Assembly (NCBI GenBank): GCA_905178155.1
Contig: CAJINV010000016.1
Span: forward strand, 644,259 to 708,258
Length of the DNA stretch: 64,000 nucleotides
Source: Amoebophrya sp. A120
Lineage: Eukaryota > Protista > Dinoflagellata
Direction of reading: 5' to 3'
Below, one piece after another: positions 1 through 62,900 of this stretch; the first letter of the stretch is position 1; each line of letters begins with the position of its first letter. The translations under genes and the position numbers were made by a program. The notes beneath the pieces were generated by a model that saw nothing but the letters and a program-made list of their open reading frames with translations, was not told the origin of the DNA and made no database searches.

Positions 1-3000
1 GTTTTCGGAGTCCTGGTCTTCGATATCTACATCCTCCTGGTCGCCGGGCTCTTCCGGCGGTTCCGTTGGGTCGTTCTCGTCTTCGTTCTCCGAGCCCAGC
101 GTAATGTCTTCGTCCTGGTCTTGCGGTTCTTGGCCTCTTGTTGTACCAGCGGTAATTATGGTGCCACTAGGCGTGGACGCGCGCGTCTGCTTTTGCGGGG
201 AAGTGGCGGTCGATGTGGAGCTGGTGCGGGGGGCGGCTGATAGAAGTGCAGTAGATTTTTGTAATGCTTTCAAGGGAAAAAAATGAAAACTTCACGTAAT
301 TTCTTAGCACCCTTTATTGCCATGAGATGAAATAAACGATGAAACACTGCAACACGACATCGAAATCCGTATCAATACCTCCATCCATGTTCTTTTTGTA
401 ATTTGTCGCGTTTTTGTTCACGGAGTAGTTTGTCAGATGCACCTTTCTGGACCGCAAATCTGATTTCCTTTCTGCCGAGTACTTTTCCGTCGCGAACCGC
501 ACCAATCCCTCCCGGAACAAGTAGATCTTCAAGGGGTCGAAGCTGGTGATCACCACGTAAATCCGCAAATCAAACTTGTAGCCCTTGATCAGCAGCGGCG
601 GATTCACGTACTTCTGCACCACTCTGTACTGCTTCGCCATCTTCTCCAGCCCGTTGCTGTTATGCACTGCAAAAGCATCGTACTAGTGGTAATCGCATTA
701 CAAATTCGCTCAGCATGACGACTGGAATTTGTGATGCTGTTTTACCTCGGGATGAAAATTTGTAATGCATGACTGCGATTACTAAGAGTGGATACTTTTG
801 CAATGCATAGCTGTGCGACCCGATCAATTTGATCCCTTTTCCGCAGGAGGAGTTCACCGGCTTCGAGATCCAGAGGTCGGACTTGATTTTCGCGTTGCTG
901 GAGGACGAGCTGTTCTTGTTAGGATTTCCTCCTTTCATATGCAAGAAAAGAACTGTGTAAGTGTAAATCTGTGATGCAGAAAATGCAAAACAGTTACACT
1001 TGTCATGCTCAACATGCATGATCGGGTTGCTTCCTGTGTGTTTTCCCTTCCTATCTGCGCATAACAAGTTTTTCCTGTCATGGCAGACCAACTTGTGATG
1101 CTGTTTTCCCATCAAAAGACTTACACTAAAACATTTTTTTTCTTGGATATTTCAACACTTCCAAAAACTTCTTCCCGTCCTCTGGAAGGATAAACGTCTC
1201 CGGTGTGATGTCAAACTCGTTGATATACTGCCGCTTCATCCTCATGATGTTCCGGCACATCAAGTCTTTCCGACCCAAATACCAGGAGTAGGGGAAGTGG
1301 TTGGTCCGTTGCAGGCTGTTATGCACTGCAAAAGCATCGCACTCAGTATTTCAATCGCAACTATGCATGACAGATCTGCGTTCCTACCAAACTCCGCATG
1401 AGAAATTGCAGCTTTTTTCCTGAAGAGATTTGTCATGCGATTTACACTTCTGCGATTCTTTTGCATTGCATAGCTGTGCATCTGCCGCAGCTTCTCCGGC
1501 TTGAAGTGGCCGTTCCAAATTAACGAGTACCGGGGGTGAGTCGACTCAATTTTGCTGTCGTAGTACTGCAAACCCCCTTTCTTCATGGAATTCAAAACAC
1601 AATTGTACACGTGTACCTTGTATGGAATGCAAACATGTCTGGGTCTGGAAGGATGCAAGGTCTGTCTTGCTTGTCCGGCATGTATGCGTGTCCAAGAAGA
1701 AACCCTTTTGCTTGTCATGCAAAACGGAGCTTGTCATGCGGAAATCGCAACACTAAGCAGCGCGCATATTATTTCTCATGCTTGGCTGTGCATTAAAGAG
1801 AGTTCTCTATTCACAAGTCAGCATTACAACTTTCCAGACCCAGACATTTTTGCAATCCATACCTTGTTCGTGTGCAGCCAGTACATGGTCGGGATTTTCG
1901 TCCCGTTAAGATTTTTATCAAATGCAAATATCCCTGGATGTCTGGAAACTTGTGATGCTGGGTGGCGTATCATGAGGCGGCCACAAGTGCTGGCTCAGCA
2001 TGACAAATTTCTGAGCTTCTAGGTGCTAGCTATGCCTATTCTACTGCATGACAAACCGCTTTTCTGCATGACAGAAAAGTGGGGCTCTTGGGTAACGCGC
2101 ATGACAGACTTTGGGGTCATGCTGGCAGAGCATGACAGACCTCCCATTCTTCCAGACCCAGACATTTTTACAATCCATAATTTTTGAAAATCCTCGCGTT
2201 CTTCGCCTTCTCCGCTAGTCTATCCGCCGTTATGCAAGAAAAAAACTGTGTAAGTGTAAATTTGTGTTGCAGAACATGCAACAGAGTTGCGCCTGTCATG
2301 CCAGACAGCCATGGAGTCCTCTTTTCATGTGTGTTTTCCCTTACAAGCCACGCATGACAGGTGTTCTCTGTCATGTAGAGCAAATTTGTGATGCTGTTTC
2401 CCAAAGAAAGTTACACTTACACACTTTTTTCCTGTGATAGCCGTGTTGAACCGATTACTATTTTGCTGCTGATGTTGATGTTCTTGTTCCGTCAAGCTTG
2501 AAGATGTCAAAACCGCGGAAGATTTCACCATGACTCGTGGATATTGCATCTGGTTCGGGTATTCAAAGTACACCGTGGGGCCGAGGAACTGGGGAAAGGC
2601 GGACTCGAGCAAGGAAACCGTGTCCGACTGCGGGTGCCGGTTCGCCATGATCCTGCCCTTCTTCGTCTTTTTGTTCAGCGTTGCAATCCCAGCAGCGGTG
2701 GTCGTCGGCCCGCCGTTGGACTTTCGAACTTGGTGATAGTTGCTCACAACTTGTTCACCCGCGGCAGGAACAACAGCGCCAGCATTCGTCGTTGTCGTCG
2801 TGTTAGAAACGGAGCTGGTTCTGCTGTCCGGGCGGGAATTGGAGGCTCCGCCACCCGGGTTTAATATTTGTTCCTGCTGTTCCAAATTCTCATCACCTCC
2901 GTCCGTCACGATTCCCATTTGCTTCCGCAACTGTGCTTCCTTCATCAGCTGCCTGGCGAGCAATCCCCGGGGCGTCGTGTTGTTTTTCGTGAAGTCTTGC

Positions 3001-3482
3001 TCTTCGAATTGCTCTTCTGTATCGGTGAAAACCTCGGTCTTGAATAAACCATTCGATGCAGCTGCTGCTGCATTTTCGCCCGTTTTACTACTATTTGATG
3101 CTCCCCATTTCATCTGCGATAGGTAATCACAAAACCTTTTCCGCCTCTTCCGCTCCTGCTCTGCAGCGTATTTGGCTCTCACTTTCCTTACCGCTGGATC
3201 TGTCGGCTTGATGTTGAAATCGAGCTTGTGTTGGTCAGAAGTGCTATCATTCACCGGCGTAGCGACGTTCGAGGAAGAAAAAAACCGCGGCCGGACTAAG
3301 CTCTCCGCCGCGTCGTCCGAAACCTTAAACGCCTTCACGTAGTCGATTTGTCCCGAGGCGGTCCGGCCGCCCCGCGTCCCTTGGGCAGTAGTGGACTCTC
3401 GGTTTAAGTTATGCTCCTGTCGGCTCTTCAAAAAGCGGGAATGGGACGGGTCGGCGGCCTCTGCTGCTGTGCCGACGCGCAT
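1..3482 (-). CDS. TTLL4: Tubulin polyglutamylase, TTLL4/TTLL5-like; multi-exon, 3' end lies beyond the window start
   Basis: Removing 6 introners joins the motifs QRTNHFPYSWYLGRKD, FDITPETFILPED, WISKPVNSSCGKGI and VQKYVNPPLLIKGYKFDLRIYV...FREGLVRFAT...HLTNYSVNK (ATP-grasp TTL domain). The TTLL4 vs TTLL5 assignment and the start codon are uncertain. Confidence 0.9.
661..809. mobile_element. Introner, family G
   Basis: TIR TATGCAYTGCAAAAG; DR GCTGT/GCTGT; removal joins GSHS|NGLEK. Confidence 0.9.
938..1149. mobile_element. Introner, family F
   Basis: TIR TATSCAAGAAAA...AGTGTAA; DR TTTCA; joins EVLK|GGNP. Confidence 0.88.
1320..1472. mobile_element. Introner, family G
   Basis: TIR TATGCA.TGCAAAAG; DR GCTGT; joins QMHS|LQRTNHFP. 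Confidence 0.9.
1621..1861. mobile_element. Introner, family A
   Basis: TIR TAT....TGCAAA.ATGTCTGGGTCTGGAA; DR CCTTG (CAAGG on the coding strand, which allows a canonical GT-AG reading). Confidence 0.92.
1916..2179. mobile_element. Introner, family A
   Basis: Family A TIR, left copy degenerate; DR ATTTT; joins IFKN|LNGT. Confidence 0.88.
2231..2439. mobile_element. Introner, family F
   Basis: TIR core TGTGTAAGTGTAA; DR GCCGT; joins RFNTA|DRLAE. Confidence 0.88.
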
Positions 3483-3626
3483 CGGGTAGTGCCGTGCGGC
3501 GCTCGTCGGGCGAGAAAGACGGTGGGGGAGCTGTTGGTGTTTTAGGGTTTTGGAGTTTCATCGGGAAAAGAACTTGTTTTCGTGGAATCAACCTAAGCCG
3601 CGCGTGAAACCAGGGCAAAGTCTTGA

Positions 3627-4225
3627 CTTAAGTAGTGCGCGAAGCACTTTGGCCAAAAGTGATACACGCACTACTGATGCCCTAAGTCGTACTTAGCCTA
3701 AGTCGTTCGCGAAGCACTTGGCCTTAACTCGTTCGCGAAGCACTTAACCTTAAGTCGTTCGCGAAGCATTTTAGCTCTTAAGTCGTTCGCGAAGCACTTA
3801 AGCTCTTAAGTCGTTCGCGAAGCACTTAAGCCCTTAAGTCGTTCGCGAAGCACTTAAGCTCTTAAGTCGTTCGCGAAGCACTTAGGCTTAAGTCGTTCGC
3901 GAAGCACTTACGCTTAAGTCGTTCGCGAAGCACTTTAGCTCTTAAGTCGTTCGCGAAGCACTTAAGCTCTTAAGTCGTTCGCGAAGCACTTAGGCTTACG
4001 TCGTTCGCGAAGCTGCACTTCTGAGCATTTAAGTCGTTCGCGAAGCACTTAAGAGCCCTAAAACCTTTCGCGAAGCACTTGTTCCGAGCTCTTAAGTCGT
4101 TCGCGAAGCACTTAAGAAGTCTTAAGTCGTTCGCGAAGCACTTAAAGGAAGCCTCAAGTCGTTCGCGAATCACTTCAAGCTAACTACTTCGCGCAGCACC
4201 GCCGCTTAGGTCACTCGCGAAGCGC
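3627..4225. repeat. Tandem array of a ~26-30 bp near-palindromic unit (CTTAAGTCGTTCGCGAAGCACTTAAG), roughly 20 copies
   Basis: Directly visible; AAGTCGTTCGCGAAGCACTT recurs with only a few nt of variable linker. Confidence 0.95.
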
Positions 4226-4340
4226 ATCTTCCAGATCCTCCATTCCGTCAATCGCGGTGTACTACACGACGCACTTTCATCATACATTTCTATCTACTTT
4301 TTTCATCGACATGCTGAATTCATCTTATCCAAGTCAAAAG

Positions 4341-7300
4341 CTATACCTCCTGCACCGCCGACGCAGCTGCAGTCGACGCCGTGTCCGAGGCGTCATTCAC
4401 ATTCCCCGAGCCCGCATCCACATTCCCCGGACCGAGCGTCGTGGCCCCGTAGGTTTTCCGGTGCGGAATGGTCCGCAACCGCTCCGCCACAACGGACGAC
4501 CGAGAATTGTACTGGGCTTGCTGCTGCTGCTGTGATGTTGCGCCGCTGTTCCTTTCCGCCAACAGTTTTTCCACAGCGGTATTCAAAAGCGAATTTGATT
4601 TTTGCAGGGAGATGCTCGTACTGCTGGAATGGGAGCTTTTCGTAATCGCCGTCTCATGCCGAAGTTTCAGAGCCGCATTTTCGCTGGTGAGGTTTGAGGC
4701 GTGACTCGCGTGCTGGTTCATTTGCTGCTGTTGTTGATGACCTCGTGGTGTCGGACCGAGTAGGGGCACCACCTGCTGTCGAGTGATCATGTTTTTCACG
4801 TTTTGCTGTCCTCCGCCGATCCTGTTGTAATCCCTTCTGGAACTAGAGCTCGCACTGTTTCCCGTGCCAACCAACACCGCGTCGGGTTCTCGGTCTTCTG
4901 TATTGAACAGAAATTGTTGCCCGTACCCCACGTTATTCTGGCTATTGCCCCGGATGAAATCGTCACTGTGCATGACCAACGGCGACAACCGCATCTGCTT
5001 TTTGCTCACCTCGTTTGATGCGTCTCTGTCCCCACCGAAACTCGCAAATTTCTGTCCGACCGTCGTGTTGTCCCTTTCCACTTTCAACGGGGAACCGGGA
5101 TTAACCAGCTGTTGGCTCGCGAGACTGCTGTTCGTCCCCCCACTGCTGGGAAACATTTGCATGGGGCGCACCGGTGACGCTGCGGCGGACAGAACCACCA
5201 TGTCGTTCTCCGTGGATATCGGTAAAGGAGACATCCCCGCGGGGAGCGGGGACATGGCGAGCGTGGTACCGGGAGATTGCTGTGGATTCATTTTCGGTTG
5301 CAGAAATTTCGTCTGGCTCGAATTCATCTCCTTCACGGTGTCTTTCGTGATCAGCATCTTTTGCTGCTCGGGCGTGGCGCTGGATCCAGGTCGCGTTGCA
5401 GAATTACCAGTTGCGGATGGCAAGAAATCGCTTGACATCCTCGCAGCAGCTCCCGCCGTGGTTGAGCCGCCATTTGCTCCTTCTACGTGGTCGAGCCCGA
5501 TGGGCAAACTCGCTCCACCAGGGGAGTGCAGGAAGTTGTCCCTTTTTAAAATCACGAGGTTCGCATTTGGGTTCAGCTGGGTCGGAAGGAAATCGCGGGA
5601 GGCGGAATTTTGGGGCGGCTCTACCGAACCTGCTGCAGTTGCGCTGGAGTTATTTGGCGGTGACTTTGGCAGATTGGCAACATTTTGCTGATTGCTACCA
5701 CCAGGGCCGGCAAGCCCCGCACTAATATTGCCAGCCCCCGCGTGATTTTTAGTACTGCTTCCACTACCAGACGAAGAAGATACCGCTGCACCCATTCCCG
5801 CAACCAGCGCCGCCACACTGTTCGGCCTTCGCAGGTGACTCGACCGACTCGGATATGGTGAGCAAAAACGTCCCCACCCCAGAGTCAAGATGGCAAATGT
5901 GCTACACAAATCCACCAGCTTCGGCTGTTGCGCGTGACAAATTTGGATTCGCAATGTAGGAGTGTTTAGCTAGTGAAGCAGCATCACAGATCTCGCATAC
6001 CATGCGGATGTGCGCATCACAAATTGCAAAAAACCAATACAGACCACTTCTCATGGGTCTCCGCATGAGAAACATTCTCAGCATGGAGATTTGCATTACC
6101 AAATATAGCCGCCGGGGCGGAGGTAGTGAGGTCGTGGGCGTTTTCTTGCCGGGCGTCGCCTTGGCCGCGGCTTTGCTGTTTCTGGGGCCGCCATACCGCC
6201 GTGAGTAACGTTAGGCAGCACGGTATGGCGGCCGCTCCATAAACGTCGCAAATTTTGGCAAATCTCCGAAATTCCTTCCCGAAAGCCAGCCCCCATGCTA
6301 TGGAGCCGATCCGGGCGCCACGGGGGGCGCCCAAAAAGCGAAGGAAAATCGGGCCCATAGCATGCGGATTGGCTTTGCGCGTCCGGGGCGCTTTTTCTTT
6401 TTCGCGTTTCTATTTTTCACGCCGGCGCTTTTTGTAAAGCTTCCCAGGCTCTGAAACCGGCGAAAAGGCTGCCGCTTTCGCGGCCGCCCAAAATGCTCCG
6501 AAATCGCGGCCGTGCCATGCTGTTTCGCTGTTTTGATTTTGGGCGCGTTTTTTTCGCGCTGCTTTTTGGGCGCCCCAAACCGCCAGAAACCAAGGCGGTG
6601 GGCGCCTCAGAAGGGCGCCCCTTTTGCCGGCTCCCCTGCGTCGTTTTACCCAGCGGCGATCGATAGAATCCGCTGGCGATTCGGTGCCGACACAGCCAGA
6701 GCCGCTTGATAATTAAAAACTTTTTATGTCAAAAAACACTTCCGCCCGCTTGAAAACTGACGGCCGTTTTGCTGTCTGGCTGGCAAAAAAACTCCCCGGT
6801 TAGAACCGTTCGGTGGCCTCACTACATACAACTCTGGGGTGGGGACGTTTTTACAAATGATATCGGACTGCCGGGCATCGGGCCCGCGGAAAACGGCGGG
6901 TCGATCGGCGAAACGGATTTGCTGTTCTCCGCCGTGTTGATATTACCGATCGCAAGCTGCGGGTTCGGTGCAACCTTTTTGCTTAAGTGTTGCGCAGCTG
7001 CAGTTCCTCCGGGGTTGACCTGCAGCTGCAGCTCCCCCTGCAGAAATTGCCCGCTATCGCCGGCGACACTCGGAGGACCACTTGCCGCAGTTGCCATACT
7101 CGTCTTCCCGCTGATAATCCGAACGTAACTACTCGTCGCCGCAGAAGGTGTCGTGGTCGTGCCAGTAGTGCCAGCACTTGTTGTAACTGCTCCACTTGGC
7201 GATGACAAACTTTTCATTTTCAACCCGCTGTCATGCGCACAACTAAACGAACTGCTCGAGCTGCTACTCGCACTGTTCCCGCTCATTGAACACACCACCG

Positions 7301-8382
7301 CCCCGCCACCCATTGGCGGATTCATGAGCTGGCTCTGGCTGGGCGGGTTGTTACTGCTGTTGTGGTTCCTGCGCAACGACCGGGGCTTCGGCGACCGGGG
7401 GAGCGGCATCAGAAGAATGTTGTTCGGGGAAGTGTTCATCTTGTTTGCCCCTTGTCCTCTTGCCGATGTTGTACTTGGTGCTCCACTTGTCAGCATGTCA
7501 TGGTCAGCATTTATTCCACCGTCTTGTTTCCCCGGTGAATTCGAATTTGATGCGAGTTGTTTTTCCGGCGAGTTGTCTACCGAAGTGACGTCTACCGGGC
7601 TCCAGCCAAACGGCGCCTGGTGCGGTCCGGGGGGTATGGGGGTGAAAAGATTTTCATCAATCAAGGTGAAATACAGGTTTCAACGAGAAGTAGTAAAGTT
7701 CGAAACATCTTATGGGACAGCGAACTTTTTGCTGCGTGCACAACCGTCGACTTTGCATAAACAAAACACGATCGAATTTTATTCCACCCCTTGAGTGTTT
7801 AAAAGTCTTTCATCCCGTATCGCTTGGCGGTGATGCCGAGAGCAAGTTGTGCAACAGATTGTGACTCGGTGAAGACGTAGAGTTACAATTGCTGCTTCCA
7901 GCTGCACCTCCTATCATCGCCACATGTTGCGCCGCGGTTGCCCCCTGGCTGAACAGTTCCCCGTTCCCGCTGGATCCTCCGCGAAGCAGCTGTTTCCGCA
8001 TGCTGGAACTTATCCCGAGGGAAGAGGAGGAAGAATTGGTCGAGTTTTGCGCATGAGCAGGGTGTAGTCCGTTACTAACACCGTTGCGCAGGTTCGGCGC
8101 GCCGCCGAAGGGTCTTTGCTCCTTCCGGTGCATGAGCTCCACGCCGTTGACGATAGGGTCGGCGCCGTGGGTCAGATGCGTTGATGCTCCACCAGCACCG
8201 GCGGAGAACACTTCGCCGCGGATGCTAGCTTTCCTTCTGGAGGAGCGCGACTGCGGGTGTTGCTGCATCAGCTTCTGGGCGGCCGTGCGCGGCACGTGCA
8301 ACTGCGCGGACAACCGGCTGATTTTACCGCCGTAGAGATTCAGGTCGAGGACGTCGCCGCCCGGGTCGTGGTGGTCCGCCAT
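4341..8382 (-). CDS. Hypothetical low-complexity (S/G/Q/P/N-rich) protein, about 3 exons
   Basis: Long ORFs 7810-8430, 6822-7664 and 4341-5954; removing 5854-6862 plus one DR joins PGSP|SRSSH in frame; no recognisable domain; start codon uncertain. Confidence 0.65.
5854..6862. mobile_element. Introner, family B, enlarged by a nested insertion
   Basis: TIR core AAAAACGTCCCCACCCCAGAGT; DR TCGGA. Confidence 0.9.
6099..6826 (-). mobile_element. Nested non-autonomous element with asymmetric inverted repeats and a terminal hairpin
   Basis: Interrupts the family B sequence TTGCATTA|CAACT with apparent TA duplication; IR GTAGTGAGG (6123-6131)/CCTCACTAC (6817-6825); hairpin CCGCC-GG-GGCGG at 6109-6120. 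Confidence 0.7.
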
Positions 8383-11300: not shown

Positions 11301-11686
11301 ATTGCGGGAATTGCAAAACCAAGCGCCCTACATTCCGGGTCGGCCAAATCGGGCGCCGCGAGTTGAAAGAAGTGGTAGCGGCGGCGCCGCAATATCCAAC
11401 CCCGTGCAGCGCTTGGAAGCTGCAGCGCAAGCGGAAGCGCTTTAGAAAATCTCATACACGGCTTCTCTCTTCAGAAAGCATGCGAACCGGCCGAGATCGC
11501 GAAATAAATAGCCAAGCGCAGAGAGCTACCCGAAGATCACACTTTTGGCGTTCTTCTTTCGTTTGTTTTTGTGGGTGGACTTTGACTGTCCGAAAACGAA
11601 ATTAATACGTAAAAGATCTTCTACCATGTGAAGAAAATCGACGACAAAGAGATCTCGGACATCAATCTACCTTGTTCTTCAACCTC

Positions 11687-14600
11687 ATGGTGCGTTATTT
11701 TCGTCGTTCACTCCTCGTCCTCGCAGTGTGCTATCCGACGTCCGTGGTTTCCGCTGCGAAAACAGCAGCAGACGAGGATGATTCGCCTTCTCCGGCACCG
11801 TCCGTCTATCCCAACCCAGACCCGCCGCTGTTCCTCAACTTCGACTGCTCCCGGCTCCGGAACGGCACGGCGACCAGCATGGAGGGCCTGGGGTCCCTCT
11901 TCCGGGAGGTCCGCGGTACCCGGGTGTTCGCGAATCTACTTGGGCTAGAACCGCTGGAAACCGTACCCGCGGCGGGCCACGGCGGGGACTGGGAAGCGAG
12001 CCGGGCCTACTTTGGGAGTCTGATCAAGAAAGAGAACAAGGAACTGCTGAAAGACGCGCTGCGGAATTCGACTTCTCTCCACATCTACGACGATTTGCGC
12101 AGAATCTTCGCGCAGCTCCGAACCAGTGGGTATAAGGCGCAGAAAACGGTGGGGAAATTCACGATTTTCTCCAACGCAATCCGGCCGGACGAAGTAGAGC
12201 AACTGATTGAATGGCTCGGCGGCAGCACGTACGGACAAGCGCACAACAAATTTCTGCCGCAGTGCTCGACGAAGGAACTACCCACAACGCCAAAGAAGAA
12301 AAAATCATCAGCTGATCATGCGAAAGCTCCAGAAACAAAGCACCCGTCGGAACTGTGTCGTGAAAAGGTTCTCCGCGCGTCCCGCATGGAGCGGTTGCTT
12401 CCCCGGATCCAAGAACTCCGTATCAAATGTAAAAATGTCTGGGTCTGGAAACTTGTGATGCTGGGTGGCGCATCATGATGAGGCTCCAAATGCTGGCTCA
12501 GCATGACAAGTTTCTGAGCTCCTCGGTGTTGCCTATTCCGCATGACAAACTGCGCTTCTGCATCACAGAAAAACGAAGCTCTTGGGAAACGTGCATGACA
12601 GATTTAACAGTCATGCCAGACAAGCATGACAAACATGAATTCTTCCCGACCCAGACATTTTTACATTTGATACTCCGCGAAGCGGCGCGAAAATCCGGCA
12701 ACGTCGGCATTCTCAACCTCGTCAGCGACCGGTGCCCGGCGCTCATGTGGAACGGCGCGGCGCCGCCGGAAGTGGACGAAGAGTTGCGGGTAGCGGTGCA
12801 CCGCGCGCGGAAGAAGGAGAAGAAAATCATCGAGGCAAAGTCTTCGATCAAACGGGGCAAACTCCGCTTCTCCATCGCGATTCACATCCGGATGGGCGAT
12901 TTGCTGCAGAATGTGCTGTCCTGGACGGGGAAGAAACAACGCGAAGCGGTGACTGTGGTATGCAATTTGCAAGAGTATCGTGCTACGACGTAGGGATTGC
13001 ATGACAATGAATTTTCTTTTCAGAATCCAGAATGGAATGAGTCGTGCGGAATCAGGACAGCGAAAGCACATCTGTCATGCGTGGCCGCAGTTCGTACGCC
13101 TAGTACGATGCTCTTTTGCACTGCATACGCAAGTACGGATAACAAGAGTAAGCCACTGACCGTGACGACGGAGGACGTTTTCGAGACGCTGGAACGAAGC
13201 AAAATGATCTATCCACACCAAATTTATTTCTTCCGAACACACAAATGCGGACCAAGCATGACAAAGGTTCATTCTCGATGCTATTCAGCATGACAAATGC
13301 TCGAGTTTGGGATAATCCTTTTTATGCATTGTTGCACGTGCTGTAAGTAGGAGGGAACAACAAGTTTGTATTGCATATCCTCGACGAGGACACCATGACT
13401 CGCATGAAGAAGACGCACTTCCTATCCTATTTAAAAACGTCCCCACCCCATAGTTGTAATGCAAATCTGCATGCTGAAAATGTTTCTCATGCGGAGCCCC
13501 ATGATCTGGTAACCAAATGCGTGCGCGCGCGCGCGCAGAGCGCGCGCCGGCCCACGAAGCCGGCGCGCGCGCTCTGCGCGCCTGCGATATTGCTTTAGCA
13601 AACGCAGCGCGAAGGCAGTTGCCGTTACCATATAGGGCAACCGCCGGGAGGCGTGAAGGTCAGGGAAATGGCCAGAAATGAAGCGGGAGAAAGGAAAAAA
13701 AGCGGACCAGATGGGAAAATGGCCAGGAGGTCAAAAATGTCGCAATAACGGCAGAAACCAAGCGGGAGAAGGTGAAAAAAGAGCACTTTTGCGGTCTGGC
13801 CCACTTCGTATCTGAAAAAGAGACGGACTATTTTTTGCTCCGCCCGCTGGCCAGCTGCGTTGGAGAAGCAGGCCCGCGACCTGTTCGGAAGCCTTGGGTC
13901 GCTTCGTAACTGGAAAAAGTTGGAAAAAAATGGCAAAAAATTGCTTCATAACGTGGGTGGAAGCAATCGTCGGACTTTGTGCAAATCACCCGGGCCACTT
14001 GGAAAATGGGAAAAGATGAAAAATTGCGCAAAAGCGCAATCCCTTCGCAGGCTTCAAAACTGCCACCCAGGTGCGGGCGGCGAAAATGTCCAGGCCGCCC
14101 GGGCCACTTGGAAACCAGAAAAAGATGAAAAATTGCGCGAAAGCGCAATCCCTCCGCAGGCTTCAAAACTGCCAGTCAGCTGCGGTCGGTGAAAATGTCC
14201 AGGTCGCCCGGGCCACTTGAAAACCAGAAAAAGAAAAAAAAATGCGCAAAAACGCAATCCCTCCGCAGGCTTCAAAACTGCGAGGCAGCTGCGGTCGGTG
14301 AAAATGTCCGGAGCCCTTCGGCCACATAGAAACTTGAAAAAAAAGGAAAAATTGGCAAAAGTTGAGAACCCCCGGCAGGCTTACAAACTGGCCACCAAGG
14401 GCGGTCCGGCGGGCGCGCGCTTGCGCCATACCATCGCGATTGGGGAAAAAAAAATGCATTAGAAGCGGGCGGAGGCATGTCCCAAAATCCACGCTTGCTC
14501 TGGGTTGTGGGCACCAATTCGGGACCTCCGCCGCGTCTGAAATGCCCGACTTTGGTGGCCCAGCAGGGTCCGCGGGTTTGTGGTTTCGCACATACCTTCC

Positions 14601-50900: not shown

Positions 50901-53900
50901 GTTCCTTTTGTTGAAACCTCTCGGGCCCGCTTTACAGACAGGGGAAGAAAGTTTGATATTTCTTCTATTAATAGATTGATTCGTACTGCGTTGATCTTCT
51001 TTGCAAAACAACTACAATAAAAAGGTCACCACATCCTGCAGCGTATCGGGCGGCTTTATGCGGAATCCGAGTTGATCCGGCAACACCTGCCCGCGCACCA
51101 AGAGGGCAGTTACCTGGTGGACTACATGAAGGATACTGTCGCCTACCTCTCGAAGGACAAAAATGCCTGTTGCTACCTCCAGAAAATCTGCGCCTCGGTC
51201 GCGACGGAGGCGCAAAAGCAGTGGATCGAGCGGGAAATCTTGGGTGATTGGCTCGCGATTTGCCAAAGCGAGTACGGAAACTACGTAGTGCAGAACCATT
51301 TGGAATTGCGGGGGAAGGAGATGATGGCACTTTTCATCTCGCAGGATAGGAACTACAAAAGTTCTTGTTCATCCTCTTCTACCACTTCGTTGGAGAAGGA
51401 GGAGGCGCAGAGGACGACCACGGAGACCACAAATAAATCCGGGCCAGACGAGGCGGAGCAAAGCTGCACATCATCTCAAAAGGGAGCTGCATCAAGTTAT
51501 ACGATCTCAACTTCGTCAAGCTACTTCGCCAGGGAGCTGGTGGACAAGATTTTGAACGGGAGTGGTATGGAGAACATGAAGGTGCCTGCTCCGCGTGGTC
51601 GTGTGCAGCAGGGTTCCCCCATGGAAGGACAACCAAGCCAGCTTGGTTCCTCGTCAAGTGGATTTTTAACATGTCACCATCCACAACAGCGCAACCTGTT
51701 CCACACCCTGGCCTTTCAGAAAGCGAGCTCCAATGTGCTAGAGAAATTGCTGGAGAATTTACCGCCAGTTTTTACAACCGCACATGAAGTGGATGAGCAG
51801 GATGATCTCCTTACCCAACTAGTTCTCCACGGTTTCTTCGCGCATCTGGTGAATGCGGACGATGTTTTTGGGAACAGGAAAAACAGCAGCACAATAGAAT
51901 CTGCGACACAGCAGGGAGTTCTTGCACAGGAGCAAGCAGCGTCAACACAATCATACGCTTTGATGTCATCTTCAGCACAAAGTACAACATCAAACAGAAA
52001 GCAGCGGGCAAACGAGCTTTTCTACGAGTATTTCTCCAACAGCTACAGCAATTACGTGTTGCAGAAATTGCTGAAAATCTTGGCATATCAGATGTAAAAA
52101 TGTCTGGGCCTGGAAGAGTGCGCGATTTGTCATGCAGCTTTTCCATGACCCATGAGGTCTGGAATGCAGGACCTAGCATGACAGATTCTGTGCGATCTCT
52201 CTCATGTCTATCCTGCGCGAGAAACTCCCTCCCGACTTGGTCAAAACTAGACGACTTTTGGTAATCATGCAACACAGATTTTTGCGTGCTTCAGATTTAG
52301 CATGACGCGTTGCATTCTTCCAGACCCAGACATTTTTACATTTGATATGGCAGGAGCGGCTGCATCGTCTGGAACGTCATCCGCTTCGAAAAATATGAAT
52401 AAGGAACCAAACGCAAACCACCACGAAGTTCTCTTCCAGTTCCTCATGAAGAATTTCGTCGTTCCCTGCGTCTATTCCGAGTACGAAAGCGCGACGTGGA
52501 ATTACGAGGAAAATTTGTGGAATTTGAAGTCCGTGTCCACGAAGCTTGTCCGGAGTTACGGTGTTTTTTTCTCGGTAGATTTAATCAACAACTGCCAGAA
52601 GATTCACCACGCGCAGGCGCGAAAACGGCGGGAACAGGAGGGTGTAATTGCGGCTGCGATGGGGCCGTCGTACTATGGTAGCGGCGGTGGTGGTGGGCGT
52701 GGTCGTGGAGATCAACACAGCGGTCCTTCTGCTGGGGGTCAACAACATCTTCGCAACTACACGGGTGCTGCCACCGCAAGCCAACATGGTTATCAAAACC
52801 GTCATCGACCACAGTATGCTCACGCGAGTAGCAGTTTCGGAGTGGTCGCAGGCAGTGCAGCTATGGCGGGAGCCGGGCCTGCATCCACTCTGGGCACCAG
52901 CGGGCAACATGTCGGAGGAGGAGGAGGGGGACATCACGGGAGAAGTAGTGGCAACATGGTAGGGGCAGGAGGATCTACTACTTCCCTAGGAGCTTCTGGA
53001 TATGGACAAGCATACCATCACAATTCCGCTACATCCACCTCGGCTCAGCACAATTTTTACCACCACCATCATCACAGAGGAGGTGCTCAATCCGCCATTG
53101 GCTGCAGTGCTGGAACTGCAAGTAGCAACAGATACAGCACCCGGGGAGGAGGTAGTTCCGGGGCAGCCGCGCCAGGTGGAACATCAAGCCTATGAAATGT
53201 AAAAGTGTCTGGGTCTGGAAGAATGCGCGATTTGTCATGCAGCTTTTTCATGACCCATGAGGTCTGGAATGCAGGCCCTAGCATGACAGATTCTGTGCGA
53301 TCTTTCTCATGCCTATCCTGCATGAGAATCTGCCTCCCGACTTGGTCAAAACTGGACGACTTTTGGTAATCATGCAACACAGATTTTTGCATGCTTCAGA
53401 TTTAGCATGACAAGTTGCATTCTTCCAGACCCGGACATTTTTACATTTGATAAAGCCAACTACAGCACCACTATCTGCAGCAGCAGCTGAGGAATCTGCA
53501 GAATTGTAACACTTCGTCTTCTGGTTCTGTGTTCCACCGGGGTGGAGGTGGTAGTACTAGCAGCAACTTGCATGCGATGCAAAACTGGGACCACAACCCG
53601 CGGGAACATCACCAGTCTGATTTTTACCAACAACCAAAATCCTACTACGGGCACGGCAACAATAACATCAGCCAGAGCTCCTGCAGAACTACTACGGGGG
53701 GCAGTTTTCTTAATATCAAAAGGAAAAATCCCCCCACCCCATATCAAAAAGAAGTTTCTGATGCTGGATTTCAGTACACAAATCAGATTTGTCTTGCAGT
53801 AGAGGGCTGCAGGCATATGCCCAGCCTGAGCCGCAATGTTTTGGCGTAGGCTCCTAGCATGAAAAACGTTGATGGTGTAGGCCCAACAGCATCACAAACC

Positions 53901-54379
53901 GCCCGCATAATGTGGCGGATTCTCTGGATTTGCCTGCATGCAAGACAGACTGGATTTGTGACCACAAATCAGCATTACAAATTTCGAAAAGCACACCTTT
54001 TCAATATGGGGAGGGGGGATTTTTCCCCACAATACTTAATACTTTCTCGGGCAGCTGCAGTAGTTCACGCAGCGCGATCGGAGGAACGTCTAGTAACCAG
54101 AACCACCAGGAGCAGCTCGTCCAGTATAATTTCTCTACTGACGGCGGCAACGGTTCTTACAAACAGGACGCTAGTTGTCAACAACATTCTACGACGAGCT
54201 GCAACCTGATCGAGCAGCATCAAGGTAGTTCGAACCAATTTCATTCACACATGATGGTCAACGGAGTGGGGAAAGCGAACTACTACAACAACGGGAATGC
54301 AATGCACAGCGAGAGTTTGTCCGCGGTCCATCTCCAAAATCAGATGAGTATCCAGCGAAATATTAACCAGATACGGTAG
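44925..54379 (+). CDS. Pumilio/PUF-family RNA-binding protein with long Q/N/S/G-rich disordered regions
   Basis: PUF-like repeats LLQLSKQEYAARTIQKLIE, LSKDKNACCYLQKI, ICQSEYGNYVVQNHLE, LAFQKASSNVLEKLLE and FSNSYSNYVLQKLLK; exons joined across 6 introners and GT-AG introns. Confidence 0.82.
46651..46971. mobile_element. Introner, family C
   Basis: TIR core AGGAAAAAT.CCCCCTCCCCATATC; DR CTGCA. Confidence 0.92.
48113..48434. mobile_element. Introner, family C (opposite orientation to 46651)
   Basis: Family C TIR; DR TCGGC. Confidence 0.92.
49661..49925. mobile_element. Introner, family A
   Basis: Family A TIR; DR GGTTA. Confidence 0.93.
52086..52347. mobile_element. Introner, family A
   Basis: Family A TIR; DR TGGCA; joins KILA|GAAA. 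Confidence 0.93.
53191..53452. mobile_element. Introner, family A
   Basis: Family A TIR; DR AAGCC; nearly identical to 52086-52347. Confidence 0.93.
53714..54034. mobile_element. Introner, family C
   Basis: Family C TIR; DR CTTAA. Confidence 0.92.
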
Positions 54380-56977: not shown

Positions 56978-59900
56978 ATGGATGTCACGCTGGAGAATTT
57001 CGATCAGCTCTTGCCGGTCATCGAGCAAGAAATCGAGGCTGCGGACTATATCAGCATCGATTTGGAGATGACGGGAATCCGCAACCCGAGTGAAAAACCG
57101 AGCTATTTTCTGGACTTGCCCAACATTTTGTACAAGAAGAATCGGGAGATCGTGAACGCCTTTGACATCATGCAGATCGGGATCTGTTGCGTGAAAAAGC
57201 AGAAACATGATACGGCAACCGGTCGTACTTCAGGTGGAAGTCCATCAAGCAAAAATTCCCGTGACAACTCACCTTCGTACAAGCTCACGCCCTTCAACTT
57301 TTATGTGTTAAAACGATCCATAGACCGGATCCAGAAGACCCTGGTGACGTTGGACACGGAAACGCTGATGTTTCACACGGAAAACAAGTTCGACTTCCAA
57401 AAGTGGCTGCAGTTTGGGATCGGGTTTTGCGACTCCAAAATCGAGGAAATGCTGATGGCGCAGTTCCGGCAGGAGGCGGCGTCGTTCCAGAGCATGAGCG
57501 AGGCGCTGGCGGGGTTATCCAAAGATGCAAAGAATAATGAATATCGACGCAATTTGACGTTATTATTGACGGACCTGCTCTTGTAAGTACATGCTTTATT
57601 CCAGGATCTTCCCACTTTGCAACTAGAGCTAGACCACACAAATTATTTCGGTCTGTCTGTCGTGCAGCGAAGATATAACTCAGCATGCAAAACCGCACAA
57701 GAAGAAATAGTTTTCTCACGAATAAGTAAGTGGGTGTGTCTGCTCGTCACGTATGCAGATGTTCTCGTCTTTATGCGATATTGATAGGGGGTTTTTCGAA
57801 AATTCCATATGCTACAGCCCAGAACAACAAGAAGCAAGACTTTAACGTCGGTGGCGGAATCACGTTGGAACGGAAGGATGACCGCGACTGGTTCGAAAAT
57901 CTGTGGACCAGCGAGATCAAGCCTTTCTTCGACAAGGAGAACAGCAAGACCAACCTATCAAATGTAAAAATGTCTGGGTCTGGAAGAATGCAACTTGTCA
58001 TGCTAAATCTGAAGAATGCAAAAATCTGTGTTGCATGATTACCAAAAGTCGTCCAATTCTGACCAAGTCGGGAGGGAGTTTCTCATGCAGGATAGGCATG
58101 AGAGAGATCGCACAGAATCTGTCATGCTAGGTCCTGCATTCCAAACCTCAGGGGTCATGGAAAAGCTGCATGACAAATCGCGCATTCTTCCAGACCCAGA
58201 CACTTTTGCATCTGATACAACCCGGAGGAAAACAAGTTCAAGCTGCCCAACATGAACGCGTTTTATCCTGAGTAAAAACGTCCCCAGAGTCAACCTGGGG
58301 ATTTTGCAACACAAACCTAGAAGTTTTGGGACTCACGCAACACAAGTTGCAGTCCGTAGTGTAGTGCAGGTTAGCAACGACAAACGCATCACAAATCCAT
58401 CTGCTTATCCTGGTTACAGCATTACAAATCGCAAAACATGACTAGAAACGCCTCTCATGGACGAGATGCGCAATACAAATGTTCCTGTCATTGCAAATCT
58501 GCATCACAACTCTGGGGTTGTAGGGACGGTTTTACAAATGATACGTTTCGCGCCAAGTTTATCCGCCAGCAACTGGCGCGGCAGTATCCGGACTCCTACG
58601 TCGACTCCTACACCGATTCGCAAGCGCAGTATGCGTATCAAATGCAAATATCGATCTGGGTCTGGAAGGATGCGAGGTTTGTCATGCGCATTTTGCATGG
58701 CCCCTAATGTCCTCTGTGATGCATTCCCTAGCATCACAGATTTTGTGATGGCTTTCTGATGCCTAGACTGCATGAGAAATGCCCTCTCGCCGTCGCAAAA
58801 ACTGGACCTCTTTTGCTGTTCGTGCAACACAGAGTTTTGTAGAATCCAGATGCAGCTGCATCACAAGTTGCATCCGTCCAGACCCAGATCGATATTTGTA
58901 ATGCATAACGCGCAAACGCAGAGGGTAGTGTACCGATCCGTCACCTTGCAGGAGAAGGAGAAGCTGGAAAAGGAGAAGACGGACCGGGAAGTGCGGAAAT
59001 TCGAAGAGCGGAAAAAATCTATCACACAGAAAATGTTGAAAATGATTGAGAAGTTTGTGCTAGTCCGTTTTGGAATACTATTTGATTATTCCTCGCTCTC
59101 GAATTTCAATTTTGTTTTGGTGCGCCGCTACGGCGCACCAACTTTGTTGCGGCGCAACGACCTTTCTGGTGCCTATCAGATGCCCGGCGCAAGAACTGTG
59201 TCCGGCGCTTATCTCTCTGTCCGGCGCCCAGTGTCTAGCGCCTATTTATTTATGTCCTGCGTCTGTTTTTCATTTTCTGGCGCCTCGCTTCCGGCCGCCT
59301 TATTTTCCTAGCGCCAGCCTTTTTAGTGTCCGGCCTCTTTTTCTCTAGCCATGTGCGGCGCCTTTTGTCCTCGCGCCTCCTTTGTTGGCCTCGCCTGGCG
59401 CTCGTTTGTCCGGCCCCTTTTTAATACCTGGCTGGCCATCCAATGCCCGGCGCCTTTTTTCTTCTGGCGCCTCTATCATCCTAGGCCGCCAGTTTTCATG
59501 TTCGGTGATGAGAGCACCGCGCAGAACCGATTGGTTTGTCGGATCGTCGGGGTTTTTCCCTATACCTGTTTTATACAATTTTTCTTTTGGAGGTCACTAG
59601 CACTGGCCTAAAAGTAAAATTCGAGATTTCAAGAAGTAGACAAAAGGGGCGGGCGAGCAAAAATTATATAAGCCTTTTCATCGCAAGAGTTCCATATCCC
59701 ACCTCCGCGCGCGCGTCGGGTTCCGGCACATTTGGTCAAAAATCAAGCTGAATGGCTGCCCGGTGATACTCCACAATGGGTTTTTCGACTTGCTTTTCCT
59801 GTTTCACAACCTCGAAACCCCGTTGCCCACTATCAAGTGCAAAAATGTCTGGGTCTGGAAGAGTGTAGGCTTGTCATGCAGATTTTCCATGACCCATGAG

Positions 59901-62900
59901 GTCTGGAATGCGGGACTTAGCATGACAGACTCTGCGAGGGCTCTGCCATGCTTATTCTGCATGAGAAACTCCCTTCCAACTTGGTCAAAAGTGGACAGCT
60001 TTTGGCACTCATGCAACACAGATTTTTGCATGCTTCAGATTTACCATGACAGGTTGCAATCTTCCACACCCAGACATTTTTGCAGTTCATACCCACCGAC
60101 CTGAAGCACTTCCGGCGCGAGTTTGTGAAGCGGGTTCCGCTATGCATTGCAAATAAGTCTGGGTCTGGAAAGTTGTGATGCTAATGATCGCATGATGCGC
60201 GGCAACCTGTATTACGTGGCTGCGCATGACAAGTTTCTGAGCGGCCATGTCTAGCGTTAATCGCATGAGAAATCATCGCCTTTTTGCATGACAAACAAGT
60301 CACGCTGTAGCACAACAAGCATGACAGACTTTTCTGTCTTGTCGGCCAAGCATGACAAACTTACTTGCACTCTTCCACACCCAGACATGTTTGCAAATGA
60401 TACCCGAACCCGATTTTGGACACCAAAATCCCGTCCGACGTCTATTACAGTGAAAAGTGCCCCCCACCCCCAAAGTTGCAAAAATTTGTGATGCGAAGTT
60501 TCCAAATGAAACCTTTTTGTCATGCATGAAAGGAACATGAATCTTTCTGATGCAGATTCTAGTGTTGTTTCGCATCGCTTGCATGACAAGCACCGCTCTT
60601 GCTGGGATCTTTTGCAATACAAATTTTTGCTATTCACGATTGGAAAGCTGTGATGCTGATACATGCAAGAGGGCCAATGTTTCATTTGGAAAGGTTTGCA
60701 ATACAAATGCTTTCAAGTTCGGGGGTGGGGGCATTTTTCATTGTAATAACGTCGACCTGAAATTGAAGTACGGCGAGCAGGAACTGCCGTTTAGCTCCTT
60801 GGAGGAGGTCCACAACCTGTTGACGAAGTTCCACCCGGAGTTTATCGGAAAAAGGTTCAGCGTGGTGAAATCTCTGCAGGAGTTGCAGAAGCAGTACTTG
60901 TATCAAATGCAATGTCTACTTTGTGTGTCTACTTTGTCATGCATCTCATGGATAATTGCCTCGGTGGTCTGGAATGCACAGAGGAGCAATGTCACAGATT
61001 GCACAAGGGCTTCTTAATGCCTTGTACTCATGAAAAATTCGCGTTCTTTTGCGTAAGCAAGAAGTGGGCAGGTTTTGGCGTAGTTCCTGCAACGCAGATG
61101 TTTTTGCATTGGATCCAGACTCGGCATGAGAAGTTGCACAATCTTTCCAGACGCAGACACATTTGCAATGCATAGCTTGGAACTGAACGGCAACACCGCC
61201 GAAACCGCAGGAGCGGGGGAAAAGCTTGTGGCTGCGGATCCAATACTTCCCGAGGACGAGAAATACCACGATGCCGGCTTCGACGCCTTGCAAACGGCGA
61301 AGGTGTTTCTCGGCCTGACCACGCAGGAAAAATTTACCTGCGAGCCGAATGTGTTGCCCTTGTCTGGGCGACACCTTTTCCGGGTTCTGTTGCAGCAGGA
61401 CAGCGTCACGAGCAATGGGTCCGCAAGATTTGCTGCAGAATCGTCTGAGCTTCATCATAGCGCAGGGCTGGAGCCGCCGGTGCAGCGGCTGATCCCAGAT
61501 CCGAGTGTGGAGGAGAGGAACAATATCAAAAGGAAAAATCCCCCCTCCCCATATCGAAATAGAAATCTGTGATGCGGGATTTGTGTACACAAATCGGCTT
61601 TGTCTTGCAGTAGAGGACTGCAGGCAGATACAGAGCGGCAGGAGGGGCGTTGTGGTATAGCCGCCTAACAAGGCAGGCATATCCTCCGCAGGCCGTGCAG
61701 CATTACAAATTGCCTGCGGAACGCGGCCAGGTTTTGGGATTTGCCTTCTTGCAAGACAGAGACGATTTGTGGTCTCAAATCAGCATCATAAATTTTCGGG
61801 AGTATTCCACTTTGGTATGGGGAGGAAGGATTTTTCTTCACGATAAACAAGGGGGACAAGAAAAACAAAAGAATTTCCCATGTGAAAGTGTTTTATGCAA
61901 CATGGAGAAAAGACTTTCTCTCTAGCATTATCGTATACAGCTACAACATGAAGTGAGGCTGGTGGCGATTTTTTGCATTCTCTACTAGTACCACTGGGAA
62001 TTATGAAATTTGTGTCTGTCGATGTTGTATGTAGAGCTGTGGACCAAGAAAATTAGAGTGCGATGACGCAGTTTCTTTTCGCAAGTTGTACATGTTCCTA
62101 CGGTTATCGGTAGTCTTTTCCCGCTCGATACTTCTGCCAACATCACGAACGTTGGGCTTACTCAGGGCGCAATGAGTGGCAACAACCAGGCGAACTCGCA
62201 GTCCCAGCACCAACAATCGTCCAACTCGCTCGCCCGGCTGGATTTCAACGCGATGCAAACCGTTCTCGGGAAGGTCCTCGGGATGGAGGAGAATAAATCG
62301 CTGCAAGCGAGTAATTTCACCCTCCAGCACTTTCGCTTTCTGCACGAGGGAACCGCACTTGCCGTGATTGAGGAGGACGTGTATGATGGTGGTCTTCATG
62401 CTGCCGGAACGTCAGACAAAGGGACCACTACAACGACAACAAAGGCCAGCACGTCGACAGCAGGGACAAGCTATCAAATCGGCACCCTGCTAGACAAGCT
62501 GCAGCATGCGTTCAAAACGGAGAAGAACTTTCACTTCAACGTCTGCGAGCTGCCGGAATACGAGGACGCCATTGAGTCTTCGTTATGAGAAGTAGAGCAC
62601 ACAAGAGTTATTGATTTCCTCCCGTCCTACTTGTTTGGAGGGCCTGAGCAGCAACAGTCTCTGCATGGAAAATCGAGCTTCTGTATGGAGTGTAGTACTG
62701 TTTAGATGAATGGTGCATAGAATGATGCAGTACTACTTGTGACACAGGCATTAGCGAGAGTTGGGGTTCTTTTGCATGGCAAATGATTGGCATTAGGTGT
62801 GTTTTTGTGCTCTTCCATATTCCTTTGTCTCCGTCTCCAAGGATCACGCTTCCTCGACGAAAAATTCGGGCACGAGTGGAGCAGGAGGGAACACCAAGCC

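What the first reader, a model, noticed from the sequence alone, without database searches (positions are those of the whole stretch)
661..62819. About 63 TIR/direct-repeat elements act as non-GT-AG introns in every multi-exon gene
Seen in sequence: elements of mostly 150-335 bp, with TA...TA ends, family-specific TIRs and a 5-bp DR of arbitrary sequence, interrupt conserved motifs (kinase RAPEC|LLTDG and GRY|VAIK; PARN PLPT|DLK; TTLL MHS|LQRTNHFP). Removing element plus 5 nt restored the frame wherever I traced it, and most junctions offer no GT-AG in any register. Established knowledge: invasive non-canonical introners with inverted and direct repeats are reported in the parasitic dinoflagellate Amoebophrya, so the phenomenon itself is not new; as far as I know the excision mechanism and the mobilising enzyme are unresolved. 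Inference: these are transposon-derived introns removed precisely from RNA.
Basis: partly seen in the sequence, partly recalled or inferred. Interest (0 to 1): 0.9.

Follow-up and report, generated by a model that had tools for sequence, protein, structure and literature searches.

The report
Transposon introns cut at fixed offsets
Seventy-four transposon-like inserts interrupt the genes in this stretch of the marine parasite Amoebophrya A120 and belong to an already described intron class, but decayed copies show that their likely RNA is cut at one fixed place, one base before and four bases after the insert, likely by a modified spliceosome.

Summary
The window matches Amoebophrya sp. A120 (MOK exon 100% identical). 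The elements are its published introner elements (Farhat 2021: TAT+7+AAA inverted repeats, 3-5 nt direct repeats). I count 74, with TAT…ATA ends and a 5-nt duplication. RNA-guess contigs skip exactly element+5 nt at 12 of 12 joints read directly (up to 2,764 bp). DNA-like contigs keep the elements.

Not found in my searches: the paper calls the border 'unknown', yet decayed duplications fix it. Every tested junction fits a cut after base 4 of the duplication, in transcript direction, so intron = N-TATS…SATA-NNNN. Two junctions allow only that cut and 14 exclude the mirror cut. One available in-frame GT-AG is ignored. T at +2 is kept, G+1 and the final AG are not, and the four freed 3' bases drift to pyrimidines (23 vs 3).

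The enzyme is not shown: modified spliceosome about 0.55, Euglena-like hairpin system about 0.3. GT-AG introns also occur in these genes. The scan noted similar introns on other DNA (four notes, unchecked).

The parts
661..809 (-). element, family F4, perfect 5-nt duplication, TTLL gene
938..1149 (-). element F5, perfect duplication
1320..1472 (-). element F4, perfect duplication
1621..1861 (-). element F1, perfect duplication; reads GT..AG at the base-4 cut
1916..2179 (-). element F1, perfect duplication
2231..2439 (-). element F5, perfect duplication
5854..6862 (-). 1,009-bp element F2 with an internal insert, no Pfam hit in 7 ORFs
12421..12672 (+). element F1, perfect duplication
12959..13127 (+). 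single element, decayed duplication; protein allows cut after base 3-4
13210..13377 (+). single element, decayed duplication; cut after base 3-5
13423..15126 (+). 1,704-bp element F2 with internal tandem repeat, no Pfam hit in 7 ORFs
15383..15631 (+). element F1, perfect duplication
16034..16315 (+). element F2; reads GT..AG at the base-4 cut
17941..18225 (+). element F2 in MOK, one mismatch; upstream copy kept at base 3
18331..18502 (+). single element in MOK, perfect duplication
19057..19317 (+). element F1 in MOK, perfect duplication
20229..20397 (+). old single element in MOK; cut at or after base 4
20455..20597 (+). old single element in MOK; cut after base 4-5
20691..20877 (+). single element in MOK, perfect duplication
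23626..23938 (+). single element; contig joint 23624|23943 fixes the cut after base 4 only (intron 23625-23942, GT..CG)
24083..24390 (+). element F6, contig skips 313 nt
24896..25185 (+). single element, contig skips 295 nt, cut after base 3-5
25484..25771 (+). element F2, contig skips 293 nt
26155..26417 (+). element F1, contig skips 268 nt
26466..26649 (+). single element, contig skips 189 nt, cut after base 2-4 (base 2 would read GC..AG)
27050..27282 (+). element F1, contig skips 238 nt
27691..27997 (+). element F6, contig skips 312 nt
28052..28313 (+). element F1, contig skips 267 nt
28623..31386 (+). 2,764-bp element F1 holding satellites; contig continues at 31393 (2,769 nt skipped)
   Evidence: (loose end)
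31797..32098 (+). element F7 (5' end TAC)
32449..32736 (+). element F1, one mismatch in duplication
32835..33083 (+). single element (3' end ATG)
33173..33462 (+). single element (3' end ACA), one mismatch
33507..33655 (+). element F4
33694..33955 (+). element F1, perfect TIR but only 2/5 duplication; possible assembly collapse of two copies
34032..34316 (+). element F2
34481..34759 (+). element F2
34850..35161 (+). element F3, decayed duplication, junction not seen
35209..35417 (+). element F5
35459..35720 (+). element F1
35770..36022 (+). element F1
36471..36759 (+). element F6, contig skips 294 nt
37265..37528 (+). element F1, contig skips 269 nt
37782..38065 (+). single element; 289 nt skipped (cut after base 4-5); the in-frame GT-AG 37781-38066 (286 nt) is not used
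   Evidence: (record offsets)
38604..38769 (+). single element; contig piece ends at 38601, cut after base 3-5
38858..39091 (+). single element (3' end ATG)
39140..39401 (+). element F1
39488..39740 (+). element F1
40249..40552 (+). element F7 (5' end TAC)
40588..40921 (+). element F3, decayed duplication
40983..41303 (+). single element
41366..41686 (+). element F2
41928..42185 (+). element F1
42260..42480 (+). single element
42912..43205 (+). single element
43276..43603 (+). element F2 (3' end ATG); contig piece starts at 43608, cut after base 4-5
46651..46971 (+). element F3
48113..48434 (+). element F3
49661..49925 (+). element F1 (GT..AG possible at base-1 cut)
52086..52347 (+). element F1 in PUF gene
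53191..53452 (+). element F1
53714..54034 (+). element F3
57516..57809 (+). old single element in PARN; cut after base 3-4
57956..58217 (+). element F1
58264..58543 (+). element F2
58636..58907 (+). element F1, one mismatch
59020..59696 (+). 677-bp old element, 0/5 duplication left; protein fixes the cut after base 4 only
59831..60091 (+). element F1
60141..60402 (+). element F1; cut after base 5 excluded
60443..60748 (+). element F7
60901..61174 (+). single element, one mismatch
61524..61845 (+). element F3
61894..62130 (+). old single element; cut after base 4-5
62584..62819 (+). single element
1..8382 (-). host gene: TTL-family protein (runs off the window; joining of the upstream exons not checked)
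11687..16385 (+). host gene: 614-aa A120 protein P0124, no Pfam family
17853..20965 (+). host gene: MOK kinase P0002, 6 elements and 5 GT-AG introns
22744..43866 (+). host gene: about 2,700-codon frame with 37 elements, matched by a 9,160-nt contig
44952..54379 (+). host gene(s): 846-aa frame and a PUF-repeat frame
56978..63435 (+). host gene: PARN/CAF1 P0121, 12 elements

Best explanation
These are the known introner elements of Amoebophrya A120: short inverted-repeat elements flanked by a 5-base duplication, likely left by a cut-and-paste transposase, that are missing from the likely RNA at one fixed register (one base before the 5' repeat, four bases after the 3' repeat), likely because a modified U2-type spliceosome reads the repeat itself in place of GT-AG. 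Shown: the structure, removal of element+5 nt, the cut after base 4 of the duplication in transcript direction, and that an intact duplication is not needed. Because both ends read TAT(C/G) inward, an element inserted in either orientation presents N|NTATS as the 5' site and SATA-NNNN| as the 3' site. The target sequence is restored exactly, so any exon position is tolerated. Inferred: U at +2 is the retained 5' site contact; G+1 and the 3' AG, which pair with each other in the yeast structure, were lost together; the 3' cut is set by distance from the repeat, with the invariant A at -7 as a candidate branch point; end-to-end pairing may help choose the right pair of ends. Inferred for mobility: one integrase-type DDE transposase acting in trans on a shared subterminal motif. 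Step odds: transposon-derived RNA introns 0.95; fixed base-4 register 0.85; spliceosome as catalyst 0.55; branch at -7 about 0.25.
For: A120 identity and match to the published IR motif. 12 of 12 directly read joints skip element+5, and 13 of 13 with 37782 by record offsets. All 13 of these RNA junctions and 24 of 24 protein-tested junctions are compatible with the base-4 cut; 23626 (contig) and 59020 (protein) allow only it. 14 junctions exclude the mirror cut, although family F1 lies 12:12 in both orientations, so transcript direction sets the cut. T+2 and A+3 are present in 74 of 74 and A-7 in 74 of 74, while their mirror positions vary (0 vs 5, p=0.058; 3 vs 0, p=0.24). All 18 predominant non-canonical motifs in Farhat Table S4 have T second. 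Freed 3' bases drift purine to pyrimidine 23 vs 3, p=9e-5. A120 keeps 83 of 89 spliceosomal proteins and U2/U4/U5/U6, with U1 not detected; a canonical-intron Amoebophrya has U1. G(-1)/G(+1) and A(-2)/branch pairing in yeast.
Against: No lariat, branch point or snRNA pairing was observed. A branch 7 nt from the 3' cut would be very close (recalled). The end asymmetry is not significant and the first search required TA at both ends. The short motifs alone cannot pick the ends: the 2,764-bp element holds 38 inner TATS and 13 inner SATA sites. Old elements pair their own ends better than shuffled ends (p=0.003) and 56 of 70 fold with 6 or more terminal pairs, which suits the hairpin rival. All informative junctions lie in + strand genes. 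The four contig runs are one sample labelled RNA by guess. Protein registers rest on the published gene models. Table S4 registers may reflect aligner preference. One 204-nt intron and a 315-nt excess in the contig do not fit the model as assembled.
Confidence: 0.6

Rival explanations
1. Same elements and same register, but removed by a separate hairpin-guided system, as proposed for euglenid nonconventional introns: the two repeats pair, and cuts are made at fixed spacers (1 and 4 nt here, 3 and 5-6 nt in Euglena), releasing a circle.
For: Euglena shows the same layout, an inverted motif with a shorter 5' and longer 3' spacer. 56 of 70 elements fold with 6 or more terminal pairs. Own-end pairing persists in old elements. 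An in-frame GT-AG at 37781-38066 is ignored. U1 was not detected.
Against: Elements with 0-5 predicted terminal pairs are still removed (24896, 26466 directly; 38858, 42260 by length). TIR base 4 differs between the two ends in 38 of 74 elements. T+2 is shared with every GT-AG intron, and the 3' bases drift to pyrimidines, which a pure hairpin cutter does not predict.
Confidence: 0.3
2. The missing elements are a reverse-transcriptase artefact: template switching across a hairpin at a short direct repeat.
For: Hairpin plus direct repeat is the recalled setting for such artefacts; only cDNA-type contigs were available; one paper search on this found no paper with all terms.
Against: Junctions with no slide (23626) or with 0-2 of 5 repeat bases left (59020, 20229, 20455, 57516, 61894, 12959) follow the same register. 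59 of 74 elements have stops in all three sense frames and 44 of 74 would shift the frame. MOK relatives have the uninterrupted motifs.
Confidence: 0.03
3. The elements are excised from DNA (IES-like) and the skipping contigs are DNA.
For: X3-X6 are only guessed to be RNA; the joint table for X1 was swamped, so a minor empty-site form was not excluded.
Against: X1 contigs at flat depth 22-32 run through 7 elements without gaps, and an X5 contig also skips a GT-AG intron (50866|51024). The cut follows transcript direction, not element orientation.
Confidence: 0.04

Closest known systems
Introner elements / non-canonical introns of Amoebophrya sp. A120 (Farhat et al. 2021, PMC7789003; families also in Gozashti et al. 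2025, PMC12130899)
   Same: Same organism; IR starting TAT, seven variable bases, then AAA; direct repeat at the borders; about 240-260 nt; mixed with GT-AG introns; no transposase inside.
   Different: The paper reports repeats of 3-5 nt and a variable, unknown border. Here the repeat is always 5 nt and the border is fixed after its base 4. The 2025 table rows I saw give automated TSD lengths of 2-6.
Euglenid nonconventional introns (Nomura et al. 2025, PMC12501133)
   Same: Inverted motif at fixed, unequal distances from the two cuts; no GT-AG; MITE-like origin proposed.
   Different: Signature N3-CDG…CHG-N5-6|R versus N1-TATS…SATA-N4; no purine rule for the next exon base here (55%); T+2 is kept here; circles reported there, untested here.
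Fritillaria borealis non-canonical introns (seen through PMC11282704 and the abstract of 10.1101/2025.08.15.670264)
   Same: TIR/TSD-derived introns without GT-AG, removed by an adapted U2 spliceosome.
   Different: There the ends are preferentially AG-AC/AG-AT and U1 is present; here +1 and the last four bases are free.
IS3EU/GingerRoot DNA transposons (Kojima and Bao 2023, PMC10045372; author names recalled)
   Same: TA..TA termini; integrase-type transposase would fit the integrase-like homology reported for A120 family 38.
   Different: Their TSD is usually 6 bp, here 5; no transposase was found in the window.
Micromonas and Aureococcus introners (PMC11282704, PMC9860276)
   Same: MITE-like TIR elements that take part of the TSD into the intron.
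   Different: Those need GT/GC and AG from the element or target; these need neither.

Membership tests
Amoebophrya A120 introner elements | occurs in the A120 genome | tested here: met
   MOK exon 100% over 82 aa, P0124 100% over 244 aa, PARN best hit A120
Amoebophrya A120 introner elements | 8-20 nt terminal IR starting TAT, 7 variable bases, then at least AAA | tested here: met
   logo of 74 elements: TAT 71/74 at the 5' end, A at 11-13 in 85-95%
Amoebophrya A120 introner elements | 3-5 nt direct repeat overlapping the borders | tested here: met
   5 nt; 49 perfect, 25 decayed
Amoebophrya A120 introner elements | removed from RNA without GT-AG | tested here: met
   12 of 12 direct joints in contigs guessed to be RNA; 70 of 74 lack GT/GC-AG in any equivalent register
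Amoebophrya A120 introner elements | repeated families, no internal transposase | tested here: met
   52 of 74 in seven families; 0 Pfam hits in 18 ORFs from the three largest elements
U2-type spliceosomal intron | GT at the 5' end and AG at the 3' end | tested here: not met
   GT 22 of 74, AG 4 of 74, both 2 of 74 at the base-4 cut; T at +2 in 74 of 74
U2-type spliceosomal intron | lariat with branch adenosine, dependence on U2/U6 | not testable with these tools
   no raw reads of this strain (X9 gave 4 reads)
Euglenid nonconventional intron | signature N3CDG…CHGN5-6|R | tested here: not met
   logo N1-TATS…SATA-N4
Euglenid nonconventional intron | terminal pairing required; excised as a circle | tested here: inconclusive
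   56 of 70 fold with terminal pairs, 14 do not; circles not testable
IS3EU/GingerRoot transposons | TA..TA termini | tested here: met
   69 of 74
IS3EU/GingerRoot transposons | 6-bp TSD | tested here: not met
   5 nt in 43 of 167 pairs, 6 nt in 0
IS3EU/GingerRoot transposons | integrase-type DDE transposase in an autonomous copy | not testable with these tools
   no whole genome held; none in the window
IES-like DNA excision | DNA molecules with empty sites | tested here: inconclusive
   X1 contigs keep 7 elements, but its joint table was swamped

The most novel reading that the evidence does not exclude
A120's tens of thousands of 'signature-less' introns obey one hidden code, N|N-TATS…SATA-NNNN|N, in which the transposon's own terminal repeat has replaced GT-AG. 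U+2 is kept, G+1 and the terminal AG are dropped together, and the 3' cut is measured 4 nt from the repeat. This would be a U1-less spliceosome that makes any insertion, in either orientation and at any exon position, harmless. A shared subterminal motif and TA..TA ends would point to one IS3EU/GingerRoot-like transposase with a 5-bp TSD as the mobiliser.
Probability: 0.45. Interest if true: 0.75.

Novelty: already known. Interest (0 to 1): 0.45.

Why it matters
The elements are published for this genome, so the finding as written is not new. What remains open in print is where the cut falls and what makes it. A fixed register turns 'no splicing signature' into a testable code: it predicts a branch or circle position, which spliceosome contacts should have changed (the G+1/G-1 pair, Prp8 alpha-finger, Prp18 loop, U6), and how to re-annotate about 60% of A120 introns. 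It also explains why the invasion could be so dense (38% of this window): insertion needs no target sequence and no orientation. Using decayed target duplications to read the register applies to any introner with ambiguous borders.

Tried and rejected
No whole genome is held, so no genome-wide test or transposase search was possible. The run search listed no holder on record as RNA. In one search, X1's element-to-element joints filled the joint table, so junctions there were read from piece coordinates. The search of protein representatives with an exon of the large gene returned one unrelated repetitive protein, so that gene has no protein check; junctions 32449, 33173, 33694, 34850 and 40588 were not seen directly. 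Rfam found nothing in the window. Pfam found nothing in 18 ORFs of the large elements or 2 intergenic ORFs. The frame test cannot separate +2, +5 and +8. Retention of one whole element was rejected as the cause of the 315-nt excess, since no element+5 length or pair sums to 315. A GC-AG reading of 26466 and a GT-AG reading of 49661 cannot be excluded individually. Element 33694 was left out of the drift and old-element counts as a possible chimera; its halves did not settle this. Paper searches on fixed branch-to-3' distance and on template switching returned nothing, so those points are recalled. No minus-strand gene had a decayed duplication.

Full report
1. Observation. Outside two satellite zones, 43 of 167 TA..TA pairs with at least 14/20 terminal complementarity have an exact 5-nt flanking repeat, and none has 3, 4, 6, 7, 8 or 9 nt; ten shuffles gave 0-1 such pairs. 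BLAST, an end profile and protein mapping extend the list to 74 elements covering 24,199 bp. 67 are 150-335 bp and four are 677-2,764 bp. 52 fall in seven families and 22 are single. The duplication is perfect in 49 and decayed in 25. Both ends read TAT(C/G), six variable bases, then an A run. The largest family lies 12:12 in both orientations relative to the transcript. 70 of 74 have no GT/GC-AG in any register that gives the same mRNA. GT-AG introns coexist: five in MOK, and others in the large, PUF and TTL genes.

2. Organism and prior description. A MOK exon is 100% identical to an Amoebophrya sp. A120 protein; PARN and a third gene also hit A120 first. Farhat et al. 2021 (PMC7789003; abstract, sections 10, 11, 12, 16 and supplement passages read, figures not seen) describe A120 introner elements with IRs that start TAT, seven variable bases and AAA, 3-5 nt direct repeats and a mean length of 240 nt. 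[quoted passage not shown] Gozashti et al. 2025 (PMC12130899; passages and part 16 of 33 of one supplementary table) list 58 A120 families. In the rows I saw, automated TSD lengths are 2-6 and splice sites are mixed; one family has integrase-like homology. The class is therefore known for this genome.

3. Removal from RNA. Of 11 runs listed I laid 6. X3-X6 are one sample, labelled RNA by guess. On 22600-28640 they show 9 joints plus one loose end, each skipping element+5 nt, including 2,769 nt at 28623. On 31400-51300, piece coordinates give two more directly and a third (37782) by record offsets; a GT-AG intron is skipped too. X1 contigs run through 7 elements without gaps at flat depth. Removing 37 elements+5 and two other introns yields one 2,701-codon frame whose offsets match the 9,160-nt contig exactly from 22600 to 28320 and from 36030 to 44329. 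The contig has 315 extra nt in between, and one intron must be 204 rather than 205 nt. The frame test alone cannot separate +2, +5 and +8.

4. The register. With a perfect duplication the cut can slide over six positions; decayed copies show which bases are kept. Let k be the number of bases kept from the upstream copy. Contig joints give k=4 only (23626), 3-5 (24896), 2-4 (26466), 1-5 (27050), 1-6 (28623) and 4-5 (37782). Piece ends give 3-5 (38604) and 4-5 (43276). For 24 elements in three annotated A120 proteins all 24 allow k=4; 59020 allows only 4, and 20229, 20455, 61894, 57516, 12959, 17941 and 13210 exclude k=1. In all, 14 junctions exclude the mirror cut (k=1), 6 exclude k=5, 7 exclude k=3, and none excludes k=4. 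The intron is thus N-TATS…SATA-NNNN. At 37782 a GT-AG pair 3 nt shorter and in frame is available and is not used. The protein-based cases depend on the published gene models, and all informative cases are in + strand genes.

5. What the register shows. At k=4 the intron starts CT 23, GT 22, AT 18, TT 11 and ends AG in 4 of 74. T+2, A+3 and A-7 are invariant, while their mirror positions vary a little (p=0.058 and 0.24; the first search favoured TA ends). In Farhat's Table S4 all 9 predominant A120 motifs start N-T and all 9 A25 motifs start TT. This agrees with the code, though aligner bias and strand confusion may contribute. Where the duplication has decayed, the four freed 3' bases differ from the exonic copy as purine to pyrimidine 23 times and the reverse 3 times (p=9e-5), and none of 24 ends in AG (element 33694 left out).

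6. Mechanism. The cut follows transcript direction and survives loss of the duplication, which argues against DNA excision and against template switching. In the yeast P complex the 3' AG is read by pairing with G+1 and the branch A (10.1101/212811, passages), so joint loss of G+1 and AG with U+2 kept is what a spliceosome with altered 3' docking would allow (inference). A120 keeps most spliceosomal parts, and tunicates give a precedent (PMC11282704 section 6; 10.1101/2025.08.15.670264 abstract). A canonical-intron Amoebophrya has U1 (10.1101/2024.09.05.611473 passages). Against this, short motifs cannot choose the ends (38 inner TATS sites in the 2,764-bp element), old elements still pair their own ends better than shuffled ends (p=0.003), and 56 of 70 fold with terminal pairs. 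Euglena's code has the same unequal-spacer layout and its introns are reported as circles (PMC12501133 abstract, sections 8 and 12). I put the spliceosome at about 0.55 and a hairpin-guided system at about 0.3; a spliceosome helped by end pairing is included in the former.

7. Mobility. A uniform 5-nt duplication of arbitrary sequence, shared TIR core and a shared subterminal motif point to one transposase type acting in trans (inference). TA..TA ends are described for IS3EU/GingerRoot, whose TSD is usually 6 bp (PMC10045372 passages), so membership fails on TSD length and the enzyme is untested. No Pfam hit was found in 18 ORFs of the three largest elements.

8. Novelty. The elements are already known. 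I did not find the fixed register, the +2 T rule or the subterminal motif in five searches naming Amoebophrya or A120 or in two reviews (PMC11282704, PMC11453091 passages). PMC9860276 mentions Amoebophrya only in its references and PMC13326754 not at all. Farhat's Figures 3, S19-S25, most of the 2025 supplement, and Roy et al. 2023 (not read) could hold part of it. Four unchecked scan notes report similar introns on other DNA; none exists for this genome. Verdict: real, already known, with one testable refinement; interest 0.45.

Noticed in passing
inside elements, e.g. 12454, 19097, 57996: Motif TTGTSATGC/GCATSACAA, chosen after viewing the sequence, occurs at 9.1 per kb in elements against 0.23 in exons, 0.28 between genes and 2.5 in other introns. 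An inward-facing copy starts 33-47 nt from the 5' end in 38 of 74 and from the 3' end in 33 of 74, across unrelated families. Candidate transposase-binding site; not seen in the papers read.
   Followed up: partly
28623-36023, probably 33694-33955: The 9,160-nt contig is 315 nt longer than the window predicts here. Element 33694 has a perfect TIR but a 2/5 duplication, suggesting two F1 copies and an exon were collapsed in the assembly.
   Followed up: partly
42571-42775: An intron that looks GT-AG (205 nt) fits contig length and frame only if 204 nt are removed (GT..CA or TA..AG); inferred from arithmetic.
   Followed up: partly
31559-31768: GT-AG intron that starts G+TATAATGG and has a 4/5 flanking repeat in the element register: possibly an old element turned canonical.
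   Followed up: partly
28623-31386: An F1 element has taken up 2.4 kb of GC-rich and TGTATGA satellites and is still removed to the base.
   Followed up: yes
55017-56078: Single-exon 353-aa ORF without elements; no Pfam hit; Atlas hits all under 0.9, one AP2 lead at 15% of members.
   Followed up: partly
3600-4230: Tandem array of a 26-28 nt palindromic unit inside a minus-strand GT-AG intron of the TTL gene.
   Followed up: no
8500-11600: GC-rich stretch between divergent genes with no elements; two 221-aa ORFs without Pfam hits.
   Followed up: partly
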